From: Mustelus asterias
Taxonomy: Eukaryota
Direction of reading: 5' to 3'
Assembly: GCF_964213995.1 (NCBI RefSeq)
Contig: NC_135804.1
Coordinates: forward strand, 68,572,001-68,636,000
Length of the DNA: 64,000 nucleotides
How positions within the stretch are numbered: position 1 is the stretch's first letter; each line of letters opens with the position of its first letter. Position numbers and translations under genes: made by a program. The notes beneath the pieces are model-generated. The model worked only from the letters and a program-made list of their open reading frames with translations. It was not told where the DNA came from and made no database searches. This document shows, in pieces, positions 19,550 through 58,992 of the stretch.

Positions 19550-19604
19550 ATGTTGGCCAGTGTGGCAATTCCGTGCATTACTGTTCTCGGAATCATTTTC
19601 ACAG
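19550..19604 (+). CDS. Gene 1 exon 1: signal peptide MLASVAIPCITVLGIIFT(G)
   Basis: ATG, hydrophobic leader, phase-1 donor AG|GTATCT, and a 170-bp intron to the V exon. Homologous to the gene 2 leader (CxxVLGII). Confidence 0.8.
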
Positions 19605-19774: not shown

Positions 19775-20095
19775 GTCCCGGTGGAACTTCAGTCAGAGTC
19801 ACTCAGCTCCCTGAGAGAGTGAACACAATCACCGGTACGAACATTTCCTTTCATTGCTCGCTTCCTTTCTTTCAAGACGGCCCACGTGTGAATGTAAACT
19901 GGTGGAAAAAGGGTGACAATCAATATCTAAGGTCAGGACAAAATGACAGAATAATAACTGGTTTCAAGACTAAATTCAGCGGCTTTCTTCGGATAATTAA
20001 TGTAAATGTGCAGGACACAGGAGTATACTATTGCATTGTCACGCATCAAAACAAAACAGCTGGAAATGGAACTGGATCTAATTTAACAGTATGGG
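19775..20095 (+). CDS. Gene 1 exon 2: Ig V-set domain with a germline-joined J-like strand
   Basis: Acceptor tttttcccatag; VTQ...FHC...VNWW...LRI.NV..QDTGVYYC...GNGTGSNLTV; donor G|GTACGT; 321 bp, phase 1-1. Confidence 0.93.
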
Positions 20096-21720: not shown

Positions 21721-22032
21721 TTCCACCAACCCCATTGAAAATTAAACCTCAGCAACTTGAAACGGATCCAGCTGCACCGTTGACTCTTCTGTGCACCACA
21801 TCTCCTTTTTCCCCGAAGAATATCAGTTTCACTTGGTATAAGGATGGCACTATAACTAAAATAGGGATCAATACCATCATTAAACCCAGCACCAATGGAC
21901 TCTATGAAGCTTCCAGCCAGTTGCAAGAGGCGCAGCCTGCCCGGTCCCTAACTGTTTATACCTGTCTGGTCTTTCACAGTGCGCTCCAAATTCCAGCCAT
22001 AACCACTCACATTGTCACCTACCCAAACACAG
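21721..22032 (+). CDS. Gene 1 exon 3: Ig C1-set domain
   Basis: Acceptor ttcattgttctag; LTLLC...FSP..I.FTWYKDG...GLYEASSQL...YTCLVFHSAL; donor G|GTAAGA; 312 bp, phase 1-1. Confidence 0.93.
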
Positions 22033-28308: not shown

Positions 28309-28505
28309 CAAAGTTCTACAAAAATGTCTAACCCAACACCAGACATTTGAGAGTCGCAAGGAAAACGACATCATAAGACAATTCAATTGATAAATTTAAT
28401 GCTGTGAAATACATTTCTTTTTTCAAATTACTTTGTTTCAATTCACTAAGACACTAAAAATTTCCAATATTGAAGCAAAATGTTGGTCGCAAAATATTCG
28501 CGCAG

Positions 28506-28787: not shown

Positions 28788-28841
28788 ACGCGATTTCCGA
28801 AGTAGACTCGGAAGGCACGGCCGGCATCAAAACAACTTACT

Positions 28842-29157
28842 TAGAAATCATGGAATCCTACAGTGCAGAAAGAGGCCATTCGGCTCATCGAGTCTGCACC
28901 AACCACAATCCCACCTAAGCCCTATCCCCACATATTTACCCACTAATCCATGCACCCCGGGACACTACAGGCAATTTAGAATGGCCAATCAACCTAGCCC
29001 ACACATCTTTGGAAGGTGGGAGGGAACCAGAGCACACCCACGCTGACACAGGGAGAATATGCAAACTCCACACAAACAGTGACCCCAGCTGGGATTCGAA
29101 CCCAGGTCCCTGGAGCTGTGAAGCAGCAGTGCTAACCACTGTGCTACCGTGCCGCCC
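28842..29157 (-). mobile_element. HE1-like SINE
   Basis: Matches 9021-9376. Confidence 0.88.
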
Positions 29158-29277
29158 TTCCTACTGTCAAACCTGATTGGAAACCAAACCTGTCATTTTA
29201 TGTTTTACACTGAATCTACAAGAAGTTCATTTCTCGGCTCAGTAAATGCTCATTGTAAAGTCTTCAATAATTCCTAG

Positions 29278-29321
29278 GTATGCAGAAAGATGGTGAAAGA
29301 TGTCATTATCCGGAACAGCAG
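29278..29321 (+). CDS. Gene 1 exon 5: short cytoplasmic exon GMQKDGERCHYPEQQ
   Basis: ttcctag acceptor and CAG|GTATGT donor; 44 bp. It converts phase 1 to phase 0, exactly what is needed to join exon 4 to exon 6. Confidence 0.8.
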
Positions 29322-30139
29322 GTATGTTTCTATAATTCATTCTAACACATCGCAAATGTTAATATATACAAGTGATGTAATCAATTTACGGCAATGAACG
29401 TTTACGTTTTATCCCATCGCTGCACCAATTCATTCGCAGAAACGCAATGCGAATTTTGCATTTAAGTCATTTCCGATAGATCAGAGATGCCTGAATTGTC
29501 TACCTGAATTGTAACTGTATCTGCCTGAATTGTAACTGTATCCGCTGGCTGCGAATAAGTATATTGCATAAAACTGAACATCCATTTTAATGAACAGGTA
29601 AAGAAAAAAACGATTTTATCTGTCTGTACACAGCGGGCAATGTGATGACGGCTGTACAGTATCCATTAACAAATTGCAAACTGTGTCACATGATTTCATC
29701 CGACTGTGATATTTTGAATTCAGTTTTCATCAATCTATCTCATCAAAATACGACAGCAGCAAGAATATCCATTAAGTTGTGCTCCCTCAAGAACCTAATT
29801 GGTTCATTAAAGTCTGACAACAAAGCACATCTACCGTATTTAAATGACAGACGTCCACACTGTATAGGTTAACTCTCAACTCCGTTGTGAAATTTCCGCA
29901 TATGCCCATCACCGGCTTCTCAAGACATCCAAGTTTAGGCAATCAAACGTGGCCCAGTCAGCAGATCCAGAAATTGAGAGTTAGTTCAAAATGCTATCAA
30001 AGTTGTCAGTTTTTCTTTAATGTTCCCACGCGTGCCCAGGCAATGGAACTGGAATTTGGGATCAATTTGCCACAGTGAGAATAACCACAAGGAGGCAGGT
30101 TCCAGGAAATTGGCATTCGCTCCCATTGCCTTATCCGCC

Positions 30140-30868
30140 CATCAAATAATCCAACTGAATTTGGAACAATCCCAACAAATGCAAAGGAAGAGCATTATTT
30201 AAATAGCGATATATTGGGAATTTTGGATGCACAAACGGATCTGAGTGTCCTTGTACACCAGTCAATGAAAGTGCAGATACAGGTGAAGCAAGCAGTTAGG
30301 AAGGCAAATTGACTTTATTGCAAGAGGACTTGAGTTCTGAAGTATAGATGTCTTGCTGGAGTTATACGGTGCCTTGGTAAGACCACACCTGGAGTATTGT
30401 GGACAGTTTTGTTCTCCCCACCTAAGAAAGGGTATACCTACTATGCAGGGAGTGCAGCAGAACTTCTTAGGCGGATACCGGGTTTGGTTGGACTGTCCTC
30501 TTAGGAGAGCTTGGTTCAAATTGACCTGTATTCGCTGGAAATTGGAAGGATGAGAGGAAAGCTGATTGAAACATATAAAATTCTGACAAAGCTAGACAGA
30601 CGAGATGCAAGAGAAGATGTTTTCCCTGGTTGGGGAATCTAGAATGGGGGCACAGTGTCAGTACATAGGGTCGCCCATTTAGGACTGAGATGAATAGATC
30701 TAACTTCACACAAACGCTAGCGAACCTGTGGAAATTTCTACTACAGAAGGCGATGGAGGCGAAGTCACTGAGTGTACTCAAGAAAGAGATTTTTTTAGAT
30801 TTTAATGGTTTCAATGGATATAGGGAAAAAGCATGGATGTGGCATTGAGATCGAGGATCCACCTTGGA
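30140..30868 (+). mobile_element. Degenerate CR1 3' fragment
   Basis: LYGALVRPHLEYCGQFCSPH. Confidence 0.8.
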
Positions 30869-33800
30869 AACAGAGAAAACAGAAGCAGGAGTTGGCCATT
30901 CAGCCCATCGAGCCTGCTCAGCAATTCATTTTGATTATGGCTGATCATCAAACTCAATATCCTGATCGCACCTTCCCCCATATCCCTTGATCCCTATACC
31001 AAAGAGGTATATCTAATTTCTTTTTGAAATCACCCAATCTCTGGGTGAATAAATTTCTCCTCATCTCAGTCCTAAAAGATTTATCCCATATGCTCACATG
31101 ATCACCCCTCGATCTGCACTGCCCACCATCGGGAAAATTCTTTCCGAATCTACCCTGCCTAACCCTGTTAGAATTTTATATGTTTCTATGAGATCCCCTC
31201 TCACTCTTCTAAACTCTAATGAATATAATCTTAACTGACTGAGTCTTGCCTCATATTACAGACCTGCTATCTCAGGAATCAGTCTGGTAAACATTTGTTG
31301 CGCTCCCTCTATAGCAAGAACATTCTTCCTCAGATAAGGATACCAAAACAGCACACAATACTCCAAGTGTGGCCTCAACAATGCCCTGTACAATTGTACT
31401 ATAATCAAATGCTCTTGCCATGAAAATCAACATACCATATGCCTTCTTAACTGCCTGCTCTACCTGCGCACTTACTTTCAGTAATTGATGCAGGAGGACA
31501 CCAAGGTCTCGCTGATGATGCACCCCTCAACTTACAACCATTCAAATAACCTCATATTTATCCATATTATGCTGCATATGCCACGCATATTACCACTCAC
31601 TCAGCCTGTCGAAATCACGCTGAAGCATCTCTATATCCTCTTCACAGCTCACCCTTCCACTCAACTTTGTATCATCTGAAAGCTTGGAGATAATGCATTT
31701 ATTTTCCTCTTCCAAATCATTAATATATAATGTGATCAGTTGAGGATTCCAGCACAGATCCTTGTGGCACCCGAATAGCCACTGCCTGCCATTCAGAAAA
31801 AGACCCATTATGCCAACTGTTTGTTTCCTATCTGCTAATCAGCTTTCCATCCATCTCAAGACATAACAATAATCCTATTTGTTTTAACATTACACAGTAG
31901 TCTGCTATGTGAGACCTTGCTGAAGGCCTTCTGAACGTCTAAATAAGCCACATTCACCAGTTCTCCTTGGTCAACTCTACTAGTTAGATCCTCAAAAATT
32001 CCAATAGATCCATCAGGAATTATTTCTTCTTTGTCTGATTATGCCACTGCTTTCCAAATGCTCAACTATAAAATCCAATTCTAGCAACTTCGCCAGTACT
32101 GACGTTAGGCTGACTGGTCTATAGTTCGCTGTTTGCTCTCTCACTCCCTTTTTGAAGAGACACAATTTCCAGGGCCACTTGGTTAAGAAGTCTGGAATGA
32201 ACATTATCAATTCCTGGAGATTTATCCAGTTTCAATCCCATCAATTTCCCCGAAACCATTTACCTACTAACACCGATTTCCATCAGCGCCTCACGGAAAC
32301 CTGTTTTCTCTCAGGACTTCTGGTACATTATTTCTATCTTCCTTTGAAGGCTGAAGAAAAGTATGAATTTAGTTACTCAGCCATTTCTTTGTTCGCTGTC
32401 ATGAATTCTCCCATTTCTGGTTGTAATGGGCCTACATTCGTTTTTGTGAATCTTTTTTCTCTTTCCATACTTATAGAAACTTTTAAGTCAGTTTTTATGC
32501 TTCCTGCTAATTTACTTTCATATTCTAATTTTCCCTTCTTCATCAATGCATTGGTCTTCCTTTGCTGAAAATTAAACTGTTCCCACTATTCAGGTCTATT
32601 GCTTTTTTTGCCAATTTGTATGCTTCTTCATTGAATCTTATACGATTTCCAATTTCCCGTGTAAGCTATGATTTGGCCACAGTTCCATTACTAATCATGG
32701 AATAACAGGGATAAGCAACTTAAATGCCTACCATTGCCTGTCCACTGTATTCCTTTTCAATAATACTCCCCAGTCCATTATCACCAATTCATGTCTTCTA
32801 CCATTATAGTTACCTTTATTGAGATTCTGGACCCTGGTCTCAGAATCAAACATGTCACTATCCACCTTGGCAAAGAATTCAATTATATTATGGTCACATC
32901 ACCAAGGACTTGTTCACTACTAGATTGCAAACGAATCCTTTCGCATTACACGATGCACAGCCCATGATGGCCTGTTCCTTTTTGGTTGCTCAACATATTG
33001 GTCCAGAAAACCATCCCGTATACAATCCAGACATTCTTCCTCGATCTTACTGTGATTAATTTGATGCTCCTAATCTATATGCAGGTGAAAGTCACCCATA
33101 ATCACAGATGTTCATTTAACACATGCAAATCTGATTTCCTGTCTAATGCTACTCCCAACATTGCCACTACAGTTTGCTATTCTGTATATCACATCCACAA
33201 ATGTTTTTATTCCCCCTTCGTGTTTCTTAACACAACCCATACAGATTCCACATCGTCTATGCCAATAATATCTTTCCTCAATATCATATCAATATTTTCT
33301 TTGATCAACAATACAACTCCACCATCTTTTCCTTTCTGACTGTCCTTCTTAAAGATTCAATAACCTTCCATGTTTAGTGCCAATCCTTTGTCAACTTGGA
33401 ACCATTTCTCTGTCATTCCAACTATATCATACCCGTTTACATCCATCTGTGCTACTAATTCGTTCATTTTTTTGAATGCTCTGAACGTTAGGTGAGCCCT
33501 TTTAATATTATTTGCTCATTCCCACAACTATCTTTTTACCATATTTTTACCTGAATCTGGCTCTTGATTTCTCTGCCTATCACTTTTCTTATTCTATTTG
33601 CAGTCTTTTTCCCTTGAACTTGCTTCCCCCTGCTTTGAATCCTTACTTAGATCCCCATCTCCCAGTCACTTCCCTATCACTGTAGCAAGAACCAGCCCCC
33701 CCCCCCCCCCACACCCCCCTCCCCCACTTCGAAGGAAACAAGTCCTGGTCCTGCTCAGGTCCCACCTCTCCATCCCAATGCCTCAGGAACCTGAAACCCT

Positions 33801-33990
33801 CTCCCTCACACCATATGTTTAGCCATGTATTCATCTGGCTGTTTCTACTCTGATTGGCATGTGGCACGAGTAGTAATCCTCGATAGCTATCTTTGAGGTG
33901 CTACTTTTCAGCTTGTTCCTTAGCTCCCTATATTCTGTTTATAGGACCCTTTTTTACCATTGTGATTTGTTCCAACGTGAACCACGATCA
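30869..33990 (-). mobile_element. Degenerate long CR1 (ORF1 esterase remnant through 3' tail)
   Basis: WCEGEGFRFLRHWD (ORF1), NYRPVSLTSV, YINDLEE..SKLSDDTK. Confidence 0.82.
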
Positions 33991-35042
33991 CTAGCTATTC
34001 ACCTTTGATCATATTGAATGATGGAGCAGACTCAATGGACTGCTTGTCCTACTGCTGCTCCGTTTCTGTTTTTTTATTATTCAATCGTGGGACATGGGCA
34101 TAGCTGGCTGGCCAGCATGTATTGCACATTCCTAGTTGTCCTCGCTCAGAGGGCAGTTGAGAGTCAACCACATTGCCTACTGCTCTGGAGTCACCTGAAG
34201 GCCAGACCAGGTAAGGATGCAGATTTCTTTCCTAAAGGACATTAGTGAACCAGGTGGGTTTTTCTGACAATTGACAATGGTTTCATGGTATTTAGTCGTT
34301 TCTTAATTCCAGATATTTTTATTGAATTCAAATTTCACCACCTGCTGTGGTGGGTTTTGAATCCAAAACATTAGCTGGGTTTCTGGGTAAGTAATCTAAC
34401 CATAATACCACCTGCCCCTATATTTTTTGTATTTGCCTTCAACTTTATTGCATTGATGGGGCCAGCGAGTTTGGTCAAACATGGAGAAACCTGTTGCAAT
34501 TGAGGGTACTGTGTCTGCCATATTTCCCATTTATTATAATGAATGGACAGAAATATGTTGCCATTTAGTCCATGTTTTGCAATACTCCATCAAATGCTCC
34601 ATCAAATTACTGGTCCAGGCAAGCAAGCAACATTTCAGAATATCACCCAGTCAATAGCTGAATACAATAATTATTTTTCTGTGATAGATTTTCACACTTG
34701 CTTTACATTTGTATCTCTAATTCCATTTCTTCTTCCTGCTTAATTCATCAGAGTCTAGCTTAGAGCAATGCGACGGAAATACCTATAGATAAAAAAAGAT
34801 ACACAATTAGATAATTATTATTATAGATGTCGATGTGGATATTGTGACATTGTGGATGAATTAAAGTCTCAAAGTAAGATTTATATTTAGTCTGGAAGTT
34901 CTCTGTCCTGTTGCAATATAAACTGTCTTGTCCCACATTGTGACCATTAATTGTAGATTTCTACTTGTGGTTTGTCTGAACATTGGAAGTGATCTGATTG
35001 CTGGCCAGGCTCCTTTCTCTCACCCTATGTTAATTCAATTCC

Positions 35043-35497
35043 AGTAAGAGTTTTAACAACACCAGGTTAAAGTCCAACAGGTTTATTTGGTACCAAATAC
35101 CATTAGCTTTCGGAGCGCTGCTCCTTTGTCAGATGGAGTGGAAATCTGCTCTCAAACAGGGCACAGAGACACAAAATCAAGTTATAGAATACTGAATAGA
35201 ATGCAAATCTCTACAGCCAACCAGGTCTTAAAGATACAGACAATGTGAGTGGAGAGAACATTAAGCACAGGTTAAAGAGATGTGTATTGTGTCCAGACAG
35301 GACATCCAGTGAGATTCTGCAAGTCCAGGAGGAAAGCTGTGGGGGTTACTGATGGTGTGACATAAACCCAACATCCCGGTTTAGGCCGTCCTCATGTGTG
35401 TGGAACTTGGCTATCAGTTTCTGCTCAGCGACTCTGCGCTGCTGTGTCTCATGAAGGCTGCCTTGGAGAACGCTTCCCCGAAGATCAGAGGCTGAAT
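35043..35497 (-). mobile_element. Penelope 3' fragment with hammerhead copy 4 (35100-35136)
   Basis: AEQKLIAKFHTHEDGLNRD; CCAU-CUGACAA-A-GGAGC-agc-GCUCC-GAAA-GC-UA-AUGG (G8 mutated to A). Confidence 0.88.
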
Positions 35498-36092
35498 GTC
35501 CAATTCCAACCAGGCGATAATTGCTGCAGAAATTTTCCAATTATGCTTAAAGTTGAATTTCGTAAAATAATATCAGTGGATTCCCTATTTTTGCTGTAGC
35601 ATCCATATGAATTCGACAGCGGCTCCCATCAATGGAATATAGGGAGCAACTGTGACCCCTCATTTGTTCCTTTATTTCCCTGATCAGGAGATTTCTCAGG
35701 ATTCCATTAATCTCAACAGAATACTCGGAGAAATCCCACAGCACTGAATGAAAGAATATCTTCAACCATCTATGCTGTTTCTCTCGGGATACTGCTAGCC
35801 ACCCATACAAGTATGGCCAGGAGACAAGTCGTATGTTTGTGGAATTGTACAGACAGATTTTTGTGTTTTCCTGATGCCAGATCATTAAGCAATGTTTGGG
35901 CAGGGCACCCAAATGGAAATCCGGTGGGTGGGATACCACCACCACATTTCAATGTTCGGAAAATGCGCCAAATTCTGTTCTCAGCAGTGCCTCCACCAGA
36001 TTTTCCATTCAGCGCTCAATGCTGACAATGCTTAAAGCCCAGATGGTAAATCTCTGAAACTCTGATCACCCTCGCACAAACTATTTATTTTT

Positions 36093-36938
36093 GGTAACAA
36101 GACTGGTAGAGACCCGGGCAGAAACTCCAAGTGATCTTGTAAATTTAGCCTGGACCCCAACTTTTTGTGATTTGGCAATGGTAGGAATACAAGGTGTTCC
36201 ACTCCAGGTGTGATAGCTTTTATGAAAACAAACTTTATTTAACAAGATAGTTAAAATATGACAAAAATAATTAACATAACTTTTAACAGTTGAAATACTT
36301 AAACATGATAAAATATAAATCTGAAGTTTTTTTTATTACTTCCAACTTAAGCAACAACCACAAAGGTGTATTTTTTCTTTAGAATCAGTTAGCAAGGCAC
36401 AGAGGCTGAAGTGAATTCCCACTGCTCCAGCTTTTTAATCCCTCTGGTCAGAGATACAGAGAGAGATACACGTCTTTGATTCTCAGATAGCAGCCTCCAG
36501 TGGAAAATCTGTCTTCACACAGCAGAACTCCAATGAGAGAGAGTGAGAAAACACCTCTTGCCTATTTCAGAACTCTGGAGAGAGATACCTTCAATTTCTG
36601 AAAACAGAGAGAGGGCAAAAGAGCAACTGCTGTTTTCAAATTCAAACTGCAACTGCCTTCTTTATCCTCTCTGTAAGCCTTGCCCTATCCACTCCACTTG
36701 TCAATTAACATGATAAAACACTACTCTGAAACCACAGGTATCACATCAAAGAATATCAACAATGCCCAGATTAAAACAAGTGCTCCAATAATTAGGATCA
36801 ATTAACCTTATGCAGTATCAGCAAGTGGGCTGTGAATTGTGAATAGTTGGCACATCGTAATTCGAGTTGAAGCATAAAACAGTCCCTTCAGAAGAAACAT
36901 GACACAAATACATTTCTTAAAGGCACAGTGTCGTCACG
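36093..36938 (-). mobile_element. Possible solo LTR
   Basis: Imperfect TG...CA-like ends (GTAAC... / ...GTCAC), minus-strand AATAAA at about 36235 and an LTR-like size. No clear TSD. Confidence 0.35.
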
Positions 36939-37489
36939 AGACTCAGTCCACCCTCTGGGTGCTGGTGCCGGAGGGATGGGACTCTGCCGGGATGCAATGG
37001 ACAGTAGTGATTTCATTTAATTCTGGATTCTGGGGCTGCAAATTATGGCTTATTCATATCATTCTGCAGAGGAGTACATGACAAGAGGTTTTTTTAAATT
37101 GTCTTTCAGTTCATTCAGGGAGCTGTCGAAATGTTGCCACCTTATGCTGCACCAGATACGACCAATTCCCAAAAAACTCCAAGACATCAAGAACAGGCAC
37201 CACACATCCAGGTAGGATCGAGCAAAGACGCGGAATGCGTAATTAACAAGTAGTGTATGGGAAAATACGTTTAATACTGCTTTGCTACTTCTGTTTGCGT
37301 TAGCACTAATTCTGCGAGACTCCCGCTATTATGTCAGTTATAGCTCCGTTTGGCTTCAGAGTCACAAGATTGTAGGATATAGCCTACTCAGGAGACTTGA
37401 GAGTAAAGTATAATTTGGCACTCCTGTGCATTACTGAGGGAAGTCTGCATTACCTGAAGTACCGCATTTCAAAGGAGACGTTAGACTGA

Positions 37490-37940
37490 GACTCTAGTTA
37501 TCTAGATTTGGAGCAGATTAGGCCTATACTCCCTTCAATTTAGAAGAATGAGATGGGGATCTAATTGAGGTGTACAAGTTGCTAAAAGAGATCGATAAGG
37601 TCGAAGTGGAGAGGATGTTTCCTCTTGTACGGCAATCTAGAACACGACGTCATAGTTTGAGGACAATGGGTAGCAGATTTAAAACAGAGACGAGGAGAAA
37701 TTACGGGAGTCTGTGAAATTCACCACTCAAGATTGTAATGGGATGCTGGGACATTGACTAAGTTAAGGGAAGAAGTGGACAGCTTTTTTAATTCGTAATG
37801 GTTTGAAGGGTTATGGTGAACAGGCAGGAAAGTAAATTTTGAGGCCGAGATGAGATCAGCCGTGACCATATTAAAGGTGGAGCAGGCTCGAGGGCCCGAA
37901 TTGCATATCCCTGCTCTTAGTTCTTATGATTCTTATGTAT
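37490..37940 (+). mobile_element. Degenerate CR1 3' fragment
   Basis: agaagaatgagatggggatctaattgaggtgtacaag...; tail ttcttatgattcttatg. Confidence 0.75.
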
Positions 37941-38244
37941 GATTCATATGACTCATTGGCATTATTTCGAAGAAGAGCAGGGACGTTATCCTCTGTGTCT
38001 TAGTCAATGCCTTTGTTCCCCGTCACTAAAGCAAATTATTAAGAATATATTTCTATTTGGAGGATCTTGCTCTGAACTGATTGGCTGCTGTGTTTCTCAA
38101 GTAACAACAGTGGCTGACCGCGCCATAACAAGCGTTTGAATGACAGCAAAACACGTCTCCGGGTCGGGAAATGCATTTTTGTCTATTCTAATGACAATAA
38201 AGTAAAATTGGAACTAATTATATTCCCAATCATTGATTTCACAG

Positions 38245-38412
38245 ACCAAGCAAAGACTACCCAATAATAAGCTGACGTATGCTGCTCTAGATATGATAGG
38301 ATCAAAGAAAACAGCAAAGCCAAATCATAAGGATAAAAGCACGGAATATGCTGAGCTAAAGATGGGAAAACAAAGAGCAGGAGTTATCTACACCGAACCG
38401 AAAGCCACCTGA
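38245..38412 (+). CDS. Gene 1 exon 6: cytoplasmic tail with ITIM (LTYAAL), ITSM-like (TEYAEL) and a third tyrosine (VIYTEP); stop TGA
   Basis: Acceptor gatttcacag, phase 0: TKQRLPNNKLTYAALDMIGSKKTAKPNHKDKSTEYAELKMGKQRAGVIYTEPKAT*. Absent from the ORF track. Joined CDS is 1011 nt (336 aa plus stop). Confidence 0.88.
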   Translation, partial: TKQRLPNNKLTYAALDMIGSKKTAKPNHKDKSTEYAELKMGKQRAGVIYTEPKAT

Positions 38413-41400
38413 TAATGGTGTCCAGTGCCTAACGTATGTTAGTTATGTCTATATCTAAGGACAAGCCAATTACCATGACATCGAAAATCGACAAAGTAAT
38501 AACCACTGTTCGGGGGAAAAGTGCAGGGTTCCATTTTAATAACAGGCGGCCTGGAACCATAAGCATTAATTCAGAAGTGGCGGCTACCCGTCACTGCTTT
38601 AAGAAGCTGTGGATGAAATGGATTGTAAAACCTCAAGTTTTGCTTGAACCGGCCACAGAACTCCAAGACCCAACATCTGATTGGTGTTGGCATTTGTATT
38701 TGGTATTTGCTGTTTATGTAGTTTGAGGTTTGTGCAGCTTAGGAAAGGGGTATGATTTAGCGCTCTTTCTGCGCTGATAAACCAGAGCCCGAAGATCTCG
38801 GAGAAACCAATCACCGGGTTACTTGAAAATTGGCACGAACAGCAATCCCTGGGGACAGATATAAATCCTCCTTGGACAGTAGCGCAAAACAGGTGGTAAG
38901 AATAAGCATCAGGTTTTCCTCCCCGCTCGATTTTCGATTCTAATGACGTCCGGATTTAAGGATGGGATAGCATTCAAAGGAAACGCGCAATGAATGAGCC
39001 AGAAAGAAACAACTTATGAAATATGATTTACGCTCAGCTGCTCCCAAACTCCGTCACACTGAAGTCATTTTCAAGTGTAGTCAAAATTGCCAGATTGGGA
39101 ATGTCAGTAACAGCACAGCAGGATCCCACAGATGTACGATCAGCTTACTGTTCCAGTGGTCTTTTTTGACAGATAACTATTGGCCGGGACACGAGGAGAA
39201 CGTTGTTGTTCTTCTGTAGACAGTGGAAGTCCGATGGGTGCTCTGACATAAATTCCTTCCTATCTATTGAGAGAATGGCTTGCAATTAACTTTCTTCCAT
39301 CTCCTGCAGCGAAACATCTGGTGGCACCTAACATTGCCTGACTTCATCATTGTCTCAGCTCATTTGCTGCAGACACATTCATTCATGCCTTTGATACCAG
39401 ACTAGGCTGTCCCGATTCTTGTAGTTTCCTCACATTCTATCCTGTAAAGTTGAGGTCGTTCAAAACATGGCATTCCATGTGATAGCTTCCAGCAATATCG
39501 TTCTCTTATCATTCCCGTACTGGCTAAATCACAGTGGTTCCCGGTTTCGTGATTTAAAATTCCCCAGCTTTGTTTTTGAATTCCCTCTGTCATATGTCTG
39601 CAACCTCCAACAATCCCCCAAAAGATCTGAGTTCCACTGATTCCAGCGTCTTGTTTCAACTCCAGTTACAACTATTGCCGAGGCCCAAAACTACGGGATT
39701 TTCTCTCTCCACCTCTCCGGTTCTCTTCCTCCTTTTCAGCTTTTAAAACAGTCATTCAAACCTATGCCTTCGAACAAATTTTCGTAATTTGACCTAACTT
39801 CTACACATGTGGTTGGCTGTTATTCTTTGTTTTATAAAGCTCCAGTGAAGCACCTTGGGATATTCCATTATATTAAGAATGCTCTCTAAATTTCAGTGGT
39901 GACTGTTGTTATGATGGTACTTCTTCCTGCATTCAGCTTGAAAGTTTGCACAAAAATGAATTACATATTTTTTCAAAGATAGCTAAATGCAGAATTCGAA
40001 AGGAAATCCAAGCAATAGCACCAGAGGGCAAAATATCACAAAACAAATACAAATAGTTTTGTTTTTTAGAAAATGTATTTTGGAATGTAGGGTTTTTTAC
40101 TCAGAAGATAAATAGCCATTCAAAAGGGGCAAAACAGGCGCAACCGTTAGGTGTATTACACATATGCGTCGATGATGGACTATTGGCGCGACAAGTCTCG
40201 ATGGCCGATTGGTCTTTACTGGCGTTTTTGCTTTTTTTTTACTTTGTTAATATGAATTTATCTATAACTTAATTTCCAATTTATCACTGTTATTCGAGTG
40301 TTAATATTCAGACATGAAAAGTATATGATAGATTGTATAACATGGATGTAGTTCGTTGAGTTTCTTCTTTCATAATATGTATTCTTCTTACATTATATGA
40401 AATTGTCAGGTTGTGTTCTGGTAAAGATAATGTATATCATATTGCTTTCTGAGACACTTTCATGTTGCAGTTGCTGTAACATTAAATTTGCAAATAATTT
40501 ATCAACATTCGCATCAAAAAATTGTTTAAGAAATGTAAAAATGTTAAGCAAAAATCATGCAATTGAATAACAAGATATCAGCACGAAAATTCAACCGTGG
40601 ATTAATCAGGAAGTTAAGGGTAGACTTTTTAAAGAGGTTTATGAAGTTGCATGGAATAGTGATTTGTCTTGGACTGGGAGTGTTTTGGAAACCATCAAAG
40701 GTGTTTAAAATGTTGATTTTAAAAGCGAAAAAAGTAGATTATGAGAGCAAATGAACAAGGAATATAAGAATAGTTTGGAAGCGCTGTTACAAGTGTACAA
40801 AACGCAAGAGGATAGTTATCTTAACGAGAGATTTGCTCTAGTTATATAGGGCATTGGTTCAACCACATTCTGAGTACCGTTTACAGTAAGATATAAATAC
40901 CTTGGAAGCACTTCAGAAAAGGTTTACTCGATTAATAGCTGGAATGGGTGTGTTACCTTTTGAAAAAAGACTGGACAGACGAGGCTTGTATCAGCTGGAG
41001 TTTAGAAGAGCAAGACGCGACTTGATTGAAGCATAATATCCTGAGGGGACTTGACAGGGTGGATCTGGAAAGAATGACTATTCTTGTGGGAGAATCTAAA
41101 ATTTGGGTCACTGTTTAAAAATAAGGAGTCTCCAATTTAAGGCAGCGATTAAAAAGAAATGTTTCAAGGGATGTGAGACTTTGAAATTCTCTTCCTCAAT
41201 TCAGTGTTTTGGACGTGTGCTTGAATATCTATAAGGCAGCGGTAAGAAGTTCCATGGTAAGAAATGGGGTGAAAAGGTACAAGGGGAAGGACAGAATGTT
41301 GTTTTGAGGTTAAAATCGGATTCGCAATGATCTCAATGCATTTTGGTGGAGGGGCCGAGTTACCCATTTTAGCTCCTAATTCAGTTGTTTGCAAGTTCGT

Positions 41401-43073: not shown

Positions 43074-44565
43074 ATTAAGACATTTCGCAACGTTGTCCTT
43101 ACTTCAGTTCATCTGCTGATGAAACAAACCGTCAACCATCGCTGTCTAGACTGTTACAACGCGCTCCTGAACATTCTGCAATTTTGTACCCTCCGTGAAC
43201 TCGAGGTCATCTAAAACTCTGCTCTCCATGCCATTATTCAGTTTACAAGTCCAGTTCACCCATTACCCCTGTGCTAACTGACCAAATTACTTTCTGATTA
43301 AGCAATATCTCACGTTCATCTTTTTATCCTTGTTTTCCTTATCTCTGTTCTCTCCTCCGGCCAGCGCTGGATTTAGACTTGGTGAGGCCCTGAGCTACAT
43401 AAAGATTGGAGGCCCCTTGTTAAAAAGTTACACCAAAAGATCTCACAAAGGTGCGTATCAAAACAGGACCTTGGGTCGCTACAAAAAATATTGAATACAT
43501 AATTATGCCTTTTAATTATTTATTCGCAAGGTATTTAAAATGAAAAATACAAATTATTTTCAAATGAATGCATTTACTGATTACATATTTATCATTTGGC
43601 TGGCTTGATCTCTCTCATAGATTATAATATAGTATACCCTGGAAACAATACTTAAATGTAACTTTTAAAATAATTTTAAGATACATTAATACATATATAC
43701 AAAATGCTGACAAAATAAGCAATCAGGATCACTTTTATTAATATAAGTAATAATGAAATTGTTTGCAAAATCAGAAAACTGATATCAGATACAACTTAAA
43801 ACATTTTCTTTCTTGATTTCTCAAAAGCAAAATCATGAATTATGTCCTCAAATGATATGCTACGCAGCTTATCGCTTTCTATGCACATGATGCTAAGTGC
43901 AGACAGTTTGTCTTGAGACATGGTTGCTCTCAGTTCATTTTTGATTCTCTTTACCTGTGAAAATGACCGTTCTCCTGAACAATTTGTTACCATTAGGCAT
44001 AAGAATAGTTGTTATATTGCTTCCACATCAGGGAAAACTAAATGAATCTTGTCTTGGAAGATGATTTGAGACAGGTCTTTGTGGCAAATTTGTTATTTTC
44101 CTGGATAATTCTGCTTGACAAAAGCATCGAAGTGCTTCAGTTCCCCCGTAAGGTGAATATCAACATCGTTTGGATACTCATTCAACAAAGTTTCTACTGC
44201 TTCACGCAGTAGAAGCTTCTCAATCAACTGAAAATGAAATTTTGTTTGCAGCATAATTGTAGACTGGTGCTCTTCTTCTCAAGTTTGCTTCAAAGACATC
44301 GATTAGAGGTGTGAAGGATTTCACTCAAAATCTGTCTCTTGGAGACAGCTCTTCATCAGCATCAGACGCAGCTCCATCGTAGGCTTGTTTTTTTCTCACC
44401 CTCCTCCTTTTCTCTGCACACTTGTAATCTACATCAGGCAGTTTGGATTTAGCTTCTTGTTCAATATCATCAAAGTTTTCTCGAATATTTTTCACAAAGT
44501 GGGAAAGTGATATGTGCAGATTTTTACATGCCGTAAGTGCAATCTGTGGATCCTGGAGAGCCTTA

Positions 44566-44917
44566 GGGGCGGCATGGTAGCACAGTGGGTAGCACTGCTG
44601 CTTCACAGCTCCAGGGACCTGGGTTCGATTCCCGGCTCGGGTCACTGTCTGGGTGGAGTTTGCACATTCTCCTCGTGTCTGCGTGGGTTTCCTCCGGGTG
44701 CTCCGGTTTCCTCCCACAGTCCAAAGATGTGCGGGTGAGGTTGATTGGCCATGAGAAAATTGCCCCTTAGTTTCCTGAGATGCGTAGGTTAGAGGGATTA
44801 GTGGATAAAATATGTTGGGATATGGGGGTAGGGCCTGGGTGGGATTGTGGTCGGTGCAGACTCGATGGGCCGAATGGCCTCTTTCTGCACTGTAGGGTTC
44901 TATTGTTCTATGATTCT
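44566..44917 (+). mobile_element. HE1-like SINE nested in the hAT element
   Basis: Full head, V-domain and tail. Confidence 0.9.
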
Positions 44918-45284
44918 AAGACTGTCCTCGTCACTTACTGAAATCAATTTTGCAGACTTTACTTAGATAGTCCACCACCATATCCGCCATAAATTCACCA
45001 CTGTGATTTTTCAACTCTAAGAAAGTTAGAAAGCGTTCAACAGGTAAACCATCATCAGGTGATACATATCTTACTATAACATTTAGTTGATCCACGTGGG
45101 AAAGATCTGGTGTAGAGTCCACAGACAAACTGAAGTAGCCTGCTTTTCTCAAATCATCCAAAACTGATTCTCTTACTCTATTACTCATAAGCTGAATAAG
45201 TTCATCACATATTGTCTTAGACAAATATGAAGGAGACCCAGATCCTCTGTTTCCATATTGTTTTATGTGGTTGGAAAGAAATGA

Positions 45285-46872
45285 ACAAAGAACAAACAAA
45301 GACCAAAGAACAATACAGCACAGGAACAGGCCCTTCGGCCCTCCAAGCCCGCGCCGCTCCCCGGTCCAGGATTGAATCCTGAATCCAGGATCCCCGCCCA
45401 ATTTTCTAGCCTATCTACATCCTAATATCCTATCCACCGAGCTGTCCCTCACAGCTACGATGCTTTGTTCATCACAACCTATTAACTCACAGACCATGTG
45501 ATCTCCAGGGAGAGGCGAAAACCCAGAGTGAAAACCCCAGGGCCAATATGGGGAAAAGAAAATCTGGGAAATTCCTCTCCGACCCCCTGAGGCGATGGAA
45601 ACGAGTCCAGGAGATCACATTGGCCCTGATCAGAAAATGCTTCCCAACCCTATTCATTTCCACTTCTGCTTTACGAACACCATCTGAATTCCCTGCCCCT
45701 GAGACAGGTTCCCAACTATCCGCAGTCTCACTCTGTACTGGCACCAGCAAGATGATCATAGAATGAAGCCTTGAAACGAGAAACAAAGAACAATTAGCCC
45801 GCGCCGCTCCCTGGTCCAAACTAGACCACTCTTTTGTATCCCTCCATTCCCACTCCGTTCATATAGCTGTCTCAATAAGTCTTAAACGTTCCCAGTGTGT
45901 CCGCCTCCACCACCTTGCCCGGCAACACATATAGGCCCCCACCACCCTCTGTGTAAAATATGTCCTTCTGATATCTGTGTTAAACCTCCCCCCCTTCACC
46001 TTGAACCTATGACCCCTCGTGAACGTCACCACCGACCCGGGGAAAAGCTTCCCACCGTTCACCCTATCTATGCCTTTCATAATTTTATACACCTCTATTA
46101 AGTCTCCCCTCATCCTCCATCTTTCCAAGGAGAACAACCCCAGTTTCCCCAATCTCTCCTCATAACCAAGCCCCTCCATACCAGGCAACATCCTGGTAAA
46201 CCTCCTCTGTACTCTCTCCAAAGCCTCCACGTCCTTCTGGTAGTGTGGCGACCAGAACTGGACGCAGTATTCCAAATGCGGCCGAACCAGCGTTCTATAC
46301 ATCTGCAACATCAGACCCCAACTTTTATACTCTATGCCCCGTCCTATAAAGGCAAGTATGCCATATGCCTTCTTCACCACCTTCTCCACCTGTGACGTCA
46401 CCTTCAAAGATCTGTGGACTTGCACACCCAGGTCCCTCTGCGTATCTACACCCTTTATGGTTCTTCCATTTATCGTGTAGCTCCTCCCTACATTATTCCC
46501 ACCAAAATGCATCACTTCGCATTCATCAGGATTGAACTCCATCTGCCATTTCCTTGCCCAAATTTCCAGCCTATCTATATCCTTCTGTAGCCTCTGACAA
46601 TGTTCCTCACTATCTGCAAGTCCTGCCAGTTTTGTGTCGTCCGCAAACTTACTGATCACCCCAGTTACTCCTTCTTCCAGATCATTTATATAAATCACAA
46701 ACAGCAGAGGTCCCAATACAGAGCCCTGCGGTACACCACTAGTCACAGGCCTCCAGCCGGAAAAAGACCCTTCCACTACCACCTTCTGTCTTCTATGACC
46801 AAGCCAGCTCTCCACCCATCTAGCCACCTCCCCCTTTATCCCATGAGATCCAACCTTTTTTCACTAGCCTAT
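45285..46872 (-). mobile_element. 5'-truncated CR1 nested in the hAT element, with an extended composite 3' UTR
   Basis: ORF 45859-46827 RT. The transposase frame FVAKFDP|FLSNHIK is split by this insertion. Confidence 0.9.
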
Positions 46873-54321: not shown

Positions 54322-54367
54322 ATGTCTGCATGTCAATGCGTATGGGTCCTGGGAATTATTTACGAAG
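54322..54367 (+). CDS. Gene 2 exon 1: leader MSACQCVWVLGIIYE(G)
   Basis: Homologous to the gene 1 leader; donor AG|GTATTT, phase 1. An upstream in-frame ATG exists at 54229. Confidence 0.7.
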
Positions 54368-54437
54368 GTATTTTCCACAACAAATTGTTTTCTCCTTTAG
54401 AATCTTCTAATCCTGTTTTCTTTTTCATCCGTGTGTC

Positions 54438-54569
54438 NNNNNNNNNNNNNNNNNNNNNNNNNNNNNNNNNNNNNNNNNNNNNNNNNNNNNNNNNNNNNNN
54501 NNNNNNNNNNNNNNNNNNNNNNNNNNNNNNNNNNNNNNNNNNNNNNNNNNNNNNNNNNNNNNNNNNNNN
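54438..54569. other. Assembly gap (132 N) in gene 2 intron 1
   Basis: Run of N. Confidence 1.
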
Positions 54570-54624
54570 ATGGTTAAAGTACAATTTATTCACATGTAAC
54601 AACTACATTTTAAATATTTTATAG

Positions 54625-54936
54625 TTGCATCCACCTCGGTGTCGCAATCGCCTGAAAGCACCATTCTGATGGCAGGTTCAGACATTACCTTCCACTGCAC
54701 AGCGAACTCTGTCCAGCTTCACTCAAATGTGGATGTTTTTTGGTGGAAACTTGGCGATGAAACCTTATTAGAACCGAATTCTGATGGCAGAAAGCGATTC
54801 TTTCCTTTTAAAAGCGGAGCGACTTCTTTCCAGATCCTGAATGTCCGTGTCTCCGACTCTGGATCCTATTACTGCGGAGTGCGAGACACAGGCAGCAGGA
54901 TCCTCAATGGAACTGGATCCAAACTTGTTGTGCACG
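54625..54936 (+). CDS. Gene 2 exon 2: Ig V-set domain with a germline-joined J-like strand
   Basis: Acceptor ttttatag; VSQSP...FHC...VFWW...FQILNVRVSDSGSYYC...LNGTGSKLVV; donor G|GTAAGA; 312 bp. Confidence 0.93.
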
Positions 54937-55279
54937 GTAAGAGACATGGGGCATCTGCCATTGTAGGATGCTATATAGAAGATCAGAGGCAGTTTTGATA
55001 AATCAGGGGGATTAACATGGCAAATTTGTGAGGTTTATGGGGATAGGGCCTGGGAGGGATTGTTGTCGGTGCAGACTCGATGGGCCGAATGGCCTCCTTC
55101 AGCACTGTAGGATTCTTAATTCTGTCATCAGTGAATTGATTTCTAATGTTAATTTGTGGAAGAGGATTAGGGAACATTATTTAATGTCGGGCCTAAAACC
55201 ATACCACAATCCGCACCCATTGTTTGTTATGCATCTATATTCTACCTGTTTATTAGCACAGGGTTCCACGGCATTATTT

Positions 55280-56700
55280 AGAAACATAGAAACATAGAAA
55301 AACTACAGCACAAATAGGCCCTTCAGCCTACAAGTTGTGCCGAACACATCCCTACCCTCTCGACCTACCTATAATCCTCCATCCTATTAAGCTCCATGTA
55401 CTCATCCAGGAGTCTCTTAAAAGACCCGATTGAGTTCGCCTCCATCACCGCTGATGGCAGCCGATTCCACTCGCCCACCACCCTCTGTGTGGAAAACTTA
55501 CCCCTAACATCCCTCCTGTACCTACCCCCCAGCACCTTAAACCTGTGTCCTTTCGTAGCAGCCATTTCCACCCTGGGAAAAAGCCTCTGTGAGTCCACCC
55601 GATCTATGCCTCTCAACATCTTATATACCTCTATTAGGTCTCCTCTCATCCTAAGTCTCTCCAAGGAGAAAAGACAGAGCTCCCTCAGCCTATCCTCATA
55701 AGGCATGCCACTCAATCCAGGCAACATCCTTGTAAATCTCCTCTGCACCCTTTCAATCTTTTCCACATCCTTCCTATAGTGAGGCGACCAGAACTGAGCA
55801 CAGTACTCCAAGTGGGGTCTGACGAGGGTCTTACATAGCTGCATCATTATCCCCAGACTCCTAAACTCAATCCCTTGATTGATAAAGGCCAGCACACCAT
55901 ACGCCGTCTTAACAACCTCCTCCACCTGCGGGGCCGATTTCAGAGTCCCATGGTCCCGGACCCCAAGGTCCTTCTGATCCTCTACCGTACTAAGAGTCTT
56001 TCCCTTTATATTGTACTCCTTCATCCCATTTGTCCTACCAAAATGGACCACGACACATTTATCTGGGTTGAAGTCCGTCTGCCACTTCTCCGCCCAGTCT
56101 TGCATCCTATCTATGTCCCTCTGTAACTTCTGACATCCCTCCAGACTATCCACAACCCCACCAACCTTCGTGTCGTCGGCAAACTTACCAACCCATCCCT
56201 CCGCTTCCTCATCCAGGTTATTTATGAAAATGACAAACAGCAAGGGTCCCAGAACAGATCCCTGGGGCACACCACTGGTGACTGACCTCCATTTAGAAAA
56301 AGACCCATCTATACCCACTCTCTGCCTCCTTTGGGCAAGCCAGTTCTGGATCCACCGGGCAGCAGCCCCTTGGATCCCATGCCCTCTCACTTTTTCTAGA
56401 AGCCTTGCATGGGGGACCTTATCGAATGCCTTGCTAAAATCCATATAAACCACATCTACCGCCTTCCCTTTGTCAATGTGTTGAGTCACATTTTCGAAGA
56501 ACTCCACCAGGCTCGTAAGGCGCGATCTGCCCTTGCCAAAGCCATGCTGAGTATTCTTGAGCATACTAAACCTCTCTAAATGCTCACATATCCTGTCCCT
56601 CAGGATCTTCTCCATCCGTTTACCAACCACTGAGGTTAGACTCACCAGTCGGTAATTACCTGGGCTATCCCTATTCCCCTTCTTGAAAATAGGAACCACT
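55280..56700 (-). mobile_element. 5'-truncated CR1
   Basis: ORF 55365-56762 RT; a 17-bp tandem duplication cttgaaaataggaacca at the 5' junction (56682-56718). Confidence 0.92.
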
Positions 56701-57915
56701 ACTTGAAAATAGGAACCATTTAGATGAGGGATTTTACCTAAAAATGCCGTGTGTGGTAGCAAAAAGGATCTTGATTGACTGGCGATATGAATAGAACACA
56801 GAACATTTTTGTTACGAGGGTCTGTACTTTAGAATTCTATTTCAGAATCCTCGGGTTTGATATTCCTGTGGTACCACCTTCAAAAATTATAATAGTAAGA
56901 TTACTCAAACTGATCGGGATATGAAACCGATTAGTTCGCTGTCGATTGGAATTAATTAGAGGGCTGAATTATATAAGAAGTACTGATACCAATGACAGCA
57001 GGACGCCATTCCTCATCCGGGGTGTTTGACACATACATGGTTAAACCTTCAGATAACACGAAATCGAGTAAATTTCAGGTCGCTGGAAACACAGTCCCAT
57101 TCCGATCATTTCTGGAAATTAGATTTGATACTCGTTTGGCATATGACTTTGGAATCCAACCTGTGGATTTTACGGAGCCACTTCGTGATGTCAGACCAGA
57201 TCTATAGTTACTTTTGCTTCGTGTTAGGATTGAAACAAAAAGCTGCACTGCTCGTTCCCCTCCCCTTCGCAGTTCCACGGTTCATCCCTTCAAACGTCAA
57301 TTGTTGCCATGTCCTTCCAATCAAATTTGCAGCAATTTCCCATTTTCCCCTTTAAAATATTGAACACCATATGATTAATATTCTGCGCATTAAGATTATC
57401 GTGAAACCAATGTATCACTTTTCTTGGCTGTAAGAATTTCTCCCTTGCTACAGAAATAGAAGCCTTAACTCAATCAACTTGAATTAATATTATCTACATG
57501 AGTTTTGTTTATTTACATGGTGCGTAATCATAATGATTAAATATTTCTGAATAAATATCAAAACATATGCCTTTGTTTTTCCATTTGAAATTTGGTATTC
57601 TTGCCTTTGCCCAGATGAGTGCAAAATATGAAGCTTCCACAGCATGCTTCTTTCTCCAGGCAATATTTATTTGCGAGACCAAAACCAACCTGAATGTCCT
57701 GCGCATTACTTTCTGCTAGTTCTGTAATATTGTTCATTAGTGTTCGCATATTAGTCTACAATTTGTAATGGGAATTTAAATTTAACGTTTTGTCGTGAGT
57801 TAGTTTGGTTCCTGCGACCAAAAACCATCTGACCATCGCAAGGAAGACTGGATCTTAAAGGGGAATAAAGTACACAAGTACAAACCATCAGTGTTTTCGT
57901 TTCGCTGTTCCACAG

Positions 57916-58224
57916 CTTCCCCAGAACCCATAAGACTGATCCCCAACGTTTCCCGCACCAACTCATCTACTCGAACACTTGTGTGTAAAACGGCTGAGTT
58001 CTACCCAGAGTCTGTCACCTTCATTTGGTATAAAAACGACAGCAACATTGTGACTGGGATCAGCACCATTCAAACGGGGAACGCAGAGGGGGAGTATGAA
58101 GCTTCCAGTACTTTGGAAATGGAAGGTCCAGCTCAGAGCGGTATTGTGTATACCTGTGTTGTGTCTCACCTCACACTGCAGTATCCAATCATGGCTGTTT
58201 ACTTGGACTCCATTTCTAATTCAG
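57916..58224 (+). CDS. Gene 2 exon 3: Ig C1-set domain
   Basis: Acceptor gttccacag; TLVC...FYP..VTFIWYKN...GEYEASSTL...YTCVVSHLTL; donor G|GTAAGA; 309 bp. Confidence 0.93.
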
Positions 58225-58878
58225 GTAAGATGCCAATCTTTGTACAGATATAGCCGGTCACCGTTTGCTATGTATCCACGTTAATGTCGTTCAATCCTCT
58301 GAACTTAATTACGTTCATTTAAAGACTGGTTCGTCTTGGGGATTTGTAAAGCGGATAAAGGAGGGAAAGAGAGCGATCTATTACGAATATTATCCATTAC
58401 CCAATTTCACTCAGATTCAATGGGTTGCCATTTAACGCAGAACAAAGGAATACATGGAAAATCTTTTCACTCATGACTTTAGAATTTCCTCGTTATGACA
58501 AGCTGCTGATACCCTTGTATAGATATTCCACTTTATGAGACACATCACCCTGCACTCATGTGGCTGTAATTTTCGACATGTGCCTAGCTGTAAAATCCTG
58601 GTTTTTGTGTCAATGGAAATGCAAACGATACATGTTTATTGATGTAATACAAACAGGGGATGTAATCAGCTGATTGTGAAGTCAGAATCAATAACAGTAC
58701 CAGGTCATGTGAGTTAAAAGTCTTCGGCTCTGTTACTGAAAAATATTTGCAATATATTTTATTCAATAGACTGGTTGCGTATCACTTCCTTCAACGGGAA
58801 AATGGTAATTGATTATTCATATTAATAGCAATAATTATATTACGTTCGCTGTTTTCACTATCATTATGATTTTCACAG

Positions 58879-58992
58879 ATCCTGGGCACACTACCATTTA
58901 TCTACAGATTTCTAAATATGCAGGAGCTGTATTGATATTTCTAGCCCTGAGCGCTTTCATTATGAAGAGCTACCAACTCCGTAACTGTAATG
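58879..58992 (+). CDS. Gene 2 exon 4: stalk plus transmembrane helix containing Lys
   Basis: Acceptor ttttcacag; DPGHTTIYLQISKYAGAVLIFLALSAFIMKSYQLRNCN; donor G|GTAAGG; 114 bp. Confidence 0.88.

What the first reader, a model, noticed from the sequence alone, without database searches (positions are those of the whole stretch)
38245..38412. Hidden terminal exon with a SIRP-alpha-like ITIM/ITSM tandem
Seen: LTYAALDM...STEYAEL with tyrosines 23 residues apart, plus VIYTEP, about 9 kb beyond the previous exon and missed by the ORF track. Known (recalled): human SIRP-alpha has LTYADLDM...SEYASV and ITYADL...TEYASI, and PD-1 has an ITIM-ITSM pair with similar spacing that engages SHP-1/SHP-2. Inference: gene 1 is an inhibitory checkpoint-type receptor, and YxxP may recruit a Crk/Nck-type adaptor.
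Basis: partly seen in the sequence, partly recalled or inferred. Interest (0 to 1): 0.7.

Follow-up and report, generated by a model that had tools for sequence, protein, structure and literature searches.

The report
Shark immune receptor's inhibitory tail exon
This is the real, spliced last exon of a shark gene for an antibody-like but non-rearranging surface protein; its conserved tyrosine motifs likely make the protein an immune-cell brake within a cluster of about 57 related genes that likely work as on/off pairs.

Summary
The exon is real. 38245-38412 is a phase-0 last exon, with 13 homologous exons on the same chromosome, and it closes a 370-aa leader-V(J)-C1-TM-tail frame. A public contig and a RefSeq model both splice through it. 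It is a decayed copy of the same two-tyrosine module, so the ancestral tail had four tyrosines laid out like SIRP-alpha's, and this gene keeps the last pair. LTYAAL is a canonical ITIM. TEYAEL is only ITSM-like (Leu at +3). VIYTEP is more likely a leftover third repeat than a Crk/Nck site. The gene belongs to a cluster of about 57 V-C1 genes found in sharks, rays and chimaera. There, a membrane Arg/Lys and ITIM tails are nearly mutually exclusive, the pattern of paired receptors. It likely works like SIRP-alpha, but SIRP membership is not shown: one C1 only, no NSFL1C linkage, trees unresolved. SHP recruitment, ligand and cell type are untested. Databases already model these genes; I found no paper on the family in ten searches, but key papers were not held. 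This scan noted the same family before, in this genome and at least eight others.

The parts
19550..19604 (+). Gene 1 leader exon (predicted signal peptide, phase 1)
   Evidence: homologous to the N-termini of RefSeq proteins P0001/P0002; no RNA check
19775..20095 (+). Single-exon V domain with germline J-like GxG end; non-rearranging
   Evidence: Pfam V-set 8e-9; 69-80% identical to catshark and horn shark models; RefSeq model P0007 cuts this exon short near 19834
21721..22032 (+). C1-set domain exon
   Evidence: Pfam C1-set 2.6e-9; FSP motif, 13 residues Cys-to-Trp and xVxH, the hallmarks listed in PMC2785349
26811..26921 (+). Transmembrane exon with no charged residue at the column where many siblings have Arg/Lys
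   Evidence: helix in the model of the horn shark orthologue
29278..29321 (+). First cytoplasmic exon (44 nt, phase 1 to 0)
   Evidence: in RefSeq P0007 and homologous in P0009/P0010; depth in run X2 fits 41 nt of contig 14 (inferred, piece not listed)
37110..37211 (+).
   Evidence: tblastn of the horn shark tail, E 3e-9; spliced to 38245 in X2 record 14; in P0007
38245..38412 (+). Terminal exon: ITIM LTYAAL, ITSM-like TEYAEL, third tyrosine VIYTEP, stop
38413..39400 (+). 3' untranslated region, at least this long
   Evidence: X2 record 14 runs unbroken from the exon to the end of the laid stretch and has 133 further letters
54322..58992 (+). Gene 2, a paralogue: leader about 54322-54367, V 54625-54936, C1 57916-58224, TM 58879-58992 with Lys at the charged column; no tail exon found in 30 kb downstream; likely activating type

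Best explanation
38245-38412 is the spliced last exon of a leader-V(J)-C1-TM gene, and its ITIM plus ITSM-like tyrosine pair likely makes the protein an inhibitory receptor that would recruit SHP-1/SHP-2 once phosphorylated. Shown: the exon, its splice from 37110-37211, the open 370-aa frame, conservation from chimaera to requiem-type sharks, and a family of about 57 genes in which neutral membrane anchors go with ITIM tails and Arg/Lys anchors go without. Inferred: ligand binding by the V domain clusters the receptor; a Src-family kinase phosphorylates the two tyrosines 23 residues apart; the tandem SH2 domains of SHP-1/SHP-2 bind them and damp signals from ITAM receptors, probably including the charged-anchor siblings. 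The tail is built from phase-0 exons that each carry one tyrosine pair. In this gene the first module has decayed, so it would signal through one pair rather than two. The ligand and the cell type are unknown.
For: Exon real: (14 of 14 with a phase-0 acceptor; first Tyr 10-11 residues in, in 13 of 14; spacing 23 in 10 of the 12 that keep both Tyr). Spliced: (X2 record 14, 0 differences, record positions 1292/1293 adjacent across the intron; X4 record 27 fits the same joint by bin depth; X1 and X3 run through unspliced). Independent annotation: P0007, P0009, P0010. The horn shark orthologue keeps both motifs and the identical last nine residues. LTYAAL fits the ITIM definition and the SHP-2 N-SH2 preference at -2, +1 and +3, and SHP-1/SHP-2 binding sites are conserved in sharks (PMC12151841, passages). 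The four-tyrosine layout is collinear with SIRP-alpha-like proteins: spacing 23-14-23 versus 24-17-26. Paired pattern: of 55 genes, 51 gave a TM exon; 21 of 23 charged have no tail exon, 20 of 28 uncharged have one, Fisher p 1e-5.
Against: No phosphorylation, binding or cell assay. TEYAEL meets neither the strict ITSM nor the strict ITIM definition. The runs are not on record as RNA, are contigs of depth 3-5, and come from two samples of one study; the joint was read from table 8, not from the joints shown in table 5, and the link to 29278-29321 rests on depth arithmetic. Joins upstream of the first cytoplasmic exon were not checked in RNA, and the RefSeq model has no leader and a truncated V, so the full-length receptor is my prediction. 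The census is not independent (many near-copies), the charged column was chosen after seeing the data, and most tails were sought only 10 kb downstream. A first, cruder census on 66 database proteins showed no association (p 0.51). The terminal exon differs from the recent duplicate at 3 non-synonymous and 1 synonymous codon, which shows no constraint at that short distance.
Confidence: 0.75

Rival explanations
1. The exon is real but this copy is a weakened or decaying family member: the first module is lost, the expressed form may lack leader and V domain, and the protein signals little.
For: 37110-37211 has lost both motifs here, carries a TAG in the 70-Mb duplicate and has lost its AG acceptor in the 68.13-Mb paralogue. 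RefSeq P0007 lacks leader and most of V. RNA depth is low.
Against: All seven exons have GT-AG ends and give an open frame. Both tyrosine motifs of the last exon match the horn shark orthologue. Horn shark P0010 has a tail of this one module only, so a single pair is a normal family form.
Confidence: 0.12
2. The tail is a switch or adaptor platform rather than a pure brake: the TxY motif binds SAP/EAT-2-type adaptors, or VIYTEP binds Crk/Nck, giving activating or cytoskeletal output.
For: Thr at -2 of the second tyrosine; YTEP is identical in the horn shark orthologue; a third tyrosine is kept in several relatives.
Against: Pro +3 is not conserved beyond orthologues (2 of 6 and 2 of 8). The tyrosine lies 14 residues after TEYAEL, the distance at which the next repeat unit starts in three-module relatives (P0033 spacing 23-14-23-16-23; P0017). 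Thr -2 alternates with Val, Ala and Ser among paralogues.
Confidence: 0.1
3. The open frame and motifs are chance intronic or intergenic sequence.
For: The motif pattern alone arises by chance in about 10 of 100 simulated windows, and one chance copy is in this window.
Against: Paralogous exons, a spliced contig and RefSeq models in several species.
Confidence: 0.01

Closest known systems
SIRP family (SIRP-alpha / SIRP-beta1 / SIRP-gamma); PMC3716694, PMC2785349, PMC12975943, passages read
   Same: V with J-like end plus C1-set; clustered paired receptors; four-tyrosine tail in the ancestral form, collinear with bat P0136 and jay P0132; SIRP-alpha 2wng is the second-best PDB hit of the horn shark orthologue, E 3e-14; RefSeq labels many family members SIRP-alpha-like.
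   Different: One C1, not two. About 57 genes. The charged residue is mostly Arg near the outer edge of the membrane. One tyrosine pair per exon (that mammalian SIRPA carries all four in one exon is recalled, not tested). Not linked to NSFL1C. SIRP V domains score higher on MHC-chromosome V exons than on this family.
UrIg / UrIg2, shark non-rearranging VJ-C1 genes (PMC12227049, abstract and passages; PMC10751288, passages)
   Same: Germline-joined VJ plus C1 in elasmobranchs; UrIg2 is the best PDB hit, E 2e-20.
   Different: UrIg2 has ten Ig domains with Fc-like units and lies in the Ig/TCR complex, UrIg in the MHC; UrIg-like rows (my label, by domain layout) form their own branch, 100/98.
NKp30/NCR3 (PMC6514059, passages)
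   Same: VJ-type V domain; activating siblings carry a TM Arg, as NKp30 and NKp46 do for CD3-zeta/FcR-gamma.
   Different: NKp30 has no C1. This genome's NCR3-like exons lie on C8 with MHC class I, outside this family's clade.
PD-1 / CD28 family (PMC11599192 part 1 of 6 and passages; PMC12151841 passages)
   Same: ITIM followed by a TEYA motif, 23 versus 25 residues apart; GxG in the G strand.
   Different: CD28-family members have a single V and no C1; shark PD-1 is a separately described gene.
RefSeq models of the same family (P0007 LOC144493123; XP_067906080; XP_067853494; XP_007902825; XP_062923465)
   Same: Same gene or orthologues and paralogues; the exon is already in a model.
   Different: Automatic labels only (SIRP-alpha-like, Ig light chain-like, uncharacterized); P0007's 5' end differs from my model.

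Membership tests
ITIM-bearing inhibitory receptor | Cytoplasmic (S/I/V/L)xYxx(I/V/L) motif behind a TM segment | tested here: met
   LTYAAL in the spliced tail; definition from PMC12151841
ITIM-bearing inhibitory receptor | Phosphorylation-dependent SHP-1/SHP-2/SHIP recruitment and inhibition | not testable with these tools
   needs pull-down and chimeric receptor assay
ITSM (PD-1 type) | TxYxx(V/I) | tested here: not met
   TEYAEL has Leu at +3; the horn shark orthologue has TEYAQL; several paralogues have Ile or Val
Paired receptor family | Gene cluster with homologous ectodomains | tested here: met
   57 V matches (150 of 155 candidates scored) and 55 C1 matches at E<1e-6, all on C4
Paired receptor family | Both ITIM-type and charged-TM members | tested here: met
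   21 of 23 charged without tail, 20 of 28 uncharged with tail; by sequence only, near-copies not independent
SIRP | N-terminal V-set with J-like end and C1-set domain | tested here: met
SIRP | Three Ig domains, V-C1-C1 | tested here: not met
   one C1 exon between V and TM; note that a tailed-frog protein labelled SIRP-beta-1 (P0142) is also V-C1
SIRP | Four-tyrosine tail (SIRP-alpha) | tested here: inconclusive
   met in chimaera and sevengill relatives (P0016, P0052); in this gene the first pair is decayed
SIRP | One clade with sarcopterygian SIRPs | tested here: inconclusive
   V+C1 tree: joined at 61/81, unstarred; V tree: not joined, p-AU 0.25
SIRP | Location next to NSFL1C (human 20p13 arrangement, recalled) | tested here: not met
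   SEP-domain genes on C20 and C7, none on C4; the C20 one matches NSFL1 p47; no V or C1 exon in 200 kb around it while controls scored
SIRP | CD47 binding | not testable with these tools
   no CD47 sequence was recovered from the genome to test with
NCR3/NKp30 | Single V domain, MHC-linked | tested here: not met
   has C1; lies on C4, while MHC class I (140 matches) and NCR3-like exons are on C8
CD28/PD-1 family | Single extracellular V domain | tested here: not met
   V plus C1; definition from PMC11599192
UrIg/UrIg2 | Multiple C domains with Fc-like units | tested here: not met
   one C1; separate branch; PMC12227049
PRARP / tetrapod VJ-C1 genes | Orthology by tree and synteny | not tested

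The most novel reading that the evidence does not exclude
The cluster is the cartilaginous-fish counterpart of the SIRP family, which would move SIRP-type V-C1 paired receptors back from tetrapods and lobe-finned fish to the root of jawed vertebrates. The SIRP-alpha four-tyrosine tail would then descend from duplication of a one-exon tyrosine-pair module, and sharks would tune brake strength by gaining, losing or splicing these modules.
Probability: 0.3. Interest if true: 0.72.

Novelty: new variant of a known kind. Interest (0 to 1): 0.48.

Why it matters
Inhibitory innate receptors of sharks are poorly known, and one 2026 survey places the SIRP family at Tetrapoda (PMC13262535, passage). A family of about 57 non-rearranging VJ-C1 genes with brake-type and trigger-type members, present from chimaera to rays and sharks, is a candidate missing-self or pathogen-decoy receptor system. 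It also bears on the origin of antigen receptors, for which germline VJ-C1 genes are the sought relatives (PMC12227049, PMC2785349). The exon itself is modest news: a database model already holds it. What this check adds is the corrected exon chain, RNA-type support, and the modular one-pair-per-exon tail.

Tried and rejected
Direct join of 29321 to 38245: not seen; the contig and the RefSeq model go through 37110-37211. Skipping is not excluded, since horn shark P0010 has that form. No RNA holder was listed by record; the spliced contigs were the evidence used. Pfam finds nothing in the exon. CD47: the V-set search gave two unrelated Ig hits and the TM-family search rang nowhere; no evidence either way. 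PDB search with one C8 V exon at E 1e-7: 0 hits. Structure: the model of the horn shark orthologue (mean pLDDT 77, tail disordered) matches light chains and TCR by Foldseek, and B7-H6, Rst, PD-L2 and others at tied Z 14-16 by VIA-align, with SIRP-gamma at Z 13.6, rmsd 5.6, 201 aligned; this does not discriminate between families. The first charge/ITIM census on 66 database proteins was null (p 0.51) and visibly misclassified rows. Trees: 5 chosen rows (P0060, P0066, P0123, P0062, P0125) dropped out because the V domain was not parsed; an earlier 20-row tree lacked most family rows. The bat SIRP search of the genome ran with a stricter first look and may miss weak hits. Only one RSS-like heptamer was found between V and C1, inside the C1 exon. 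Literature: ten searches found no description of this family. Flajnik 2023, Ohta 2019, Ohta and Flajnik 2015 and a shark NCR3 paper were not held and may describe it; no supplements were read.

Full report
Setting. The window is G000:C4:68572001-68636000 of a 3.7-Gb genome, rich in LINE and SINE remnants. A RefSeq protein labelled Mustelus asterias is identical to the exon, so this is a shark sequence.

The observation. 38245-38412 follows a CAG acceptor, reads 55 codons in phase 0 and stops. It holds LTYAAL, TEYAEL and VIYTEP, with tyrosine spacing 23 and 14. The pattern alone is not decisive: 2 occurrences in the window against 0.11 expected, at least one in 10 of 100 simulations, and the second occurrence is antisense to the V exon. 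Homology is decisive. A genome search gave 14 matches among 19 candidates (10 at E below 0.02), all on C4 at 58.8-59.5 and 67.7-70.0 Mb. All 14 have a phase-0 YAG acceptor, 13 place the first tyrosine 10-11 residues into the exon, and 10 of the 12 that keep both tyrosines space them by 23.

The gene. Upstream lie a leader (19550-19604), a single-exon V domain with a J-like end (19775-20095), a C1-set exon (21721-22032), a TM exon (26811-26921) and a 44-nt cytoplasmic exon (29278-29321), all GT-AG and in compatible phases. With it the frame is 370 aa without stops, and it equals RefSeq P0007 over the last 240 aa. P0007 differs at the 5' end, lacking the leader and most of V. I did not check those upstream joins in RNA.

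Splicing. No run was on record as RNA. Laid on 29200-39400, run X2 gave a 1,523-nt contig whose pieces 37107-37208 and 38242-39400 are adjacent in the record, with no differences; allowing for a repeated CAG, this is removal of the GT-AG intron 37212-38244. Depth in the first bin, 0.39, equals that contig's depth over 41 nt, the length expected from exon 29278-29321; this link is inferred. In X4 a contig runs from the intron through the extra exon and has 59 more letters, which account for the depth in the last exon's bin (1.33 seen, 1.329 computed, 0.49 without). X1 and X3 cross the acceptor unspliced. The support is two samples of one study at depth 3-5.

The tail is modular. The exon at 37110-37211 is a homologue of the last exon. 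In chimaera and sevengill models the two modules give four tyrosines spaced about 23-14-23, and one chimaera model has three modules. Bat and jay SIRP-alpha-like proteins have 24-17-26, and the tails align motif for motif. Here the first module has decayed; in the 70-Mb duplicate it carries a stop and in the 68.13-Mb paralogue it has lost its AG. Horn shark models show all forms: two modules (P0009), first only (P0002), last only (P0010). VIYTEP sits where a third module would begin; its proline is found in 2 of 6 genomic and 2 of 8 database cases, so a Crk/Nck site is not well supported. LTYAAL meets the ITIM definition; TEYAEL misses TxYxx(V/I) by one residue (PMC12151841, passages).

The family. 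The V exon has 57 matches and the C1 exon 55 strong matches, all on C4. Relatives named by their sources come from catshark, horn shark, epaulette shark, sevengill, skate, manta, electric ray and chimaera. For 55 genes I fetched about 10 kb (up to 30 kb for six) behind C1 and found a TM exon in 51. Twenty-three have Arg or Lys at one column near the outer face, and 21 of these show no tail exon; 28 are uncharged, and 20 have one (Fisher p 1e-5; one tail added). Near-copies inflate this, the column was chosen after inspection, and distant tails can be missed. A cruder census on 66 database proteins was null. Gene 1 is uncharged with a tail; gene 2 in the window has Lys and no tail in 30 kb. TM arginine pairs with FcR-gamma or CD3-zeta in NKp30 and NKp46 (PMC6514059, passages). 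This layout meets the three criteria for paired receptors given in PMC3716694 (passages), by sequence.

Mechanism. Shown: exon, splice, frame, conservation, family pattern. Inferred from the ITIM/SHP paradigm: ligand-driven clustering, tyrosine phosphorylation, tandem SH2 engagement of SHP-1/SHP-2, and damping of ITAM signals. I put this at 0.75. Rivals are a weakened copy (0.12) and an adaptor or switch tail (0.10).

What it is a member of. It is not NCR3: MHC class I (140 matches) and NCR3-like exons are on C8. It is not CD28/PD-1 family, which have no C1, nor UrIg, though UrIg2 is the best PDB hit and SIRP-alpha the second. For SIRP the evidence is split. For: V-J plus C1, paired layout, collinear tail. 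Against: one C1; the NSFL1C-like gene is on C20 with no Ig exon in 200 kb; SIRP V queries and a SIRP V profile prefer C8 exons (55 and 49 bits versus 29 and 26 for the window's two V exons). Trees make the family one clade (V, 95/93, 29 rows) and neither show nor reject a union with SIRP (61/81 on V+C1, 22 rows; p-AU 0.25 on V). A coelacanth V-C1 protein with a two-tyrosine tail falls next to the family at 89/78, unstarred. The fold search does not discriminate. So it works like SIRP-alpha and is not filed as a SIRP.

Novelty. The exon is already in a database model, and RefSeq loosely labels the family SIRP-alpha-like. Ten full-text searches found no paper describing it. Several of the most relevant papers were not held and no supplements were read, so this is a weak negative. 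A SIRP review has no mention of sharks or fish (PMC12975943, term counts and passages). Notes of this scan describe the same family in this and at least eight other genomes; they are unchecked and add no support.

Noticed in passing
window 37110-37253; G000:C4:69973798-69973899; G000:C4:68134450-68134557: The penultimate tail exon ends just before the +3 residue of its second motif. Read-through supplies Ile/Val and completes the motif, whereas splicing usually supplies Thr, so splicing could toggle that motif in relatives. In this species the exon is decaying in three different ways in three copies.
   Followed up: partly
window 19550-39400 versus G000:C4:69957237-69976000: A recent segmental duplicate of gene 1 (exons 96-99% identical, intron about 95%), 1.37 Mb away; gene 2 also has a near-copy at 69.99 Mb. 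Run X4 holds a contig with the duplicate's allele.
   Followed up: partly
L060, L062, L063, L064, L068 (G000:C8:7.17-7.54 Mb): A further cluster of single-exon VJ-type V genes on the MHC chromosome, 33-46% identical to a coelacanth SIRP-like V over the matched part; distinct from the NCR3-like exons at 20.4-21.2 Mb.
   Followed up: partly
P0191 / P0140 (coelacanth) and P0150 (unnamed): Bony-vertebrate-type V-C1-TM proteins fall next to the shark family in the V tree (89/78 and 94/75, unstarred); the coelacanth one has a two-tyrosine tail. The family may not be confined to cartilaginous fish.
   Followed up: partly
L092, L072 (G000:C4:69.43 and 59.66 Mb): Two genes carry both a TM Arg and tail exons, while near-copies lack the Arg; possible intermediates between brake and trigger types.
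   Followed up: no
window 154-1095 (-) and 3002-3472 (-): Open frames that look like env and gag fragments of an endogenous retrovirus (labels by eye, not tested).
   Followed up: no
window 44328-47864 (-): Fragments resembling a hAT-type DNA transposase interleaved with SINE and LINE pieces (label by eye).
   Followed up: no
G000:C8:21.6-24.7 Mb and 31-43 Mb: A very large set of MHC class I exons, 140 matches of 150 scored, all on one contig.
   Followed up: no
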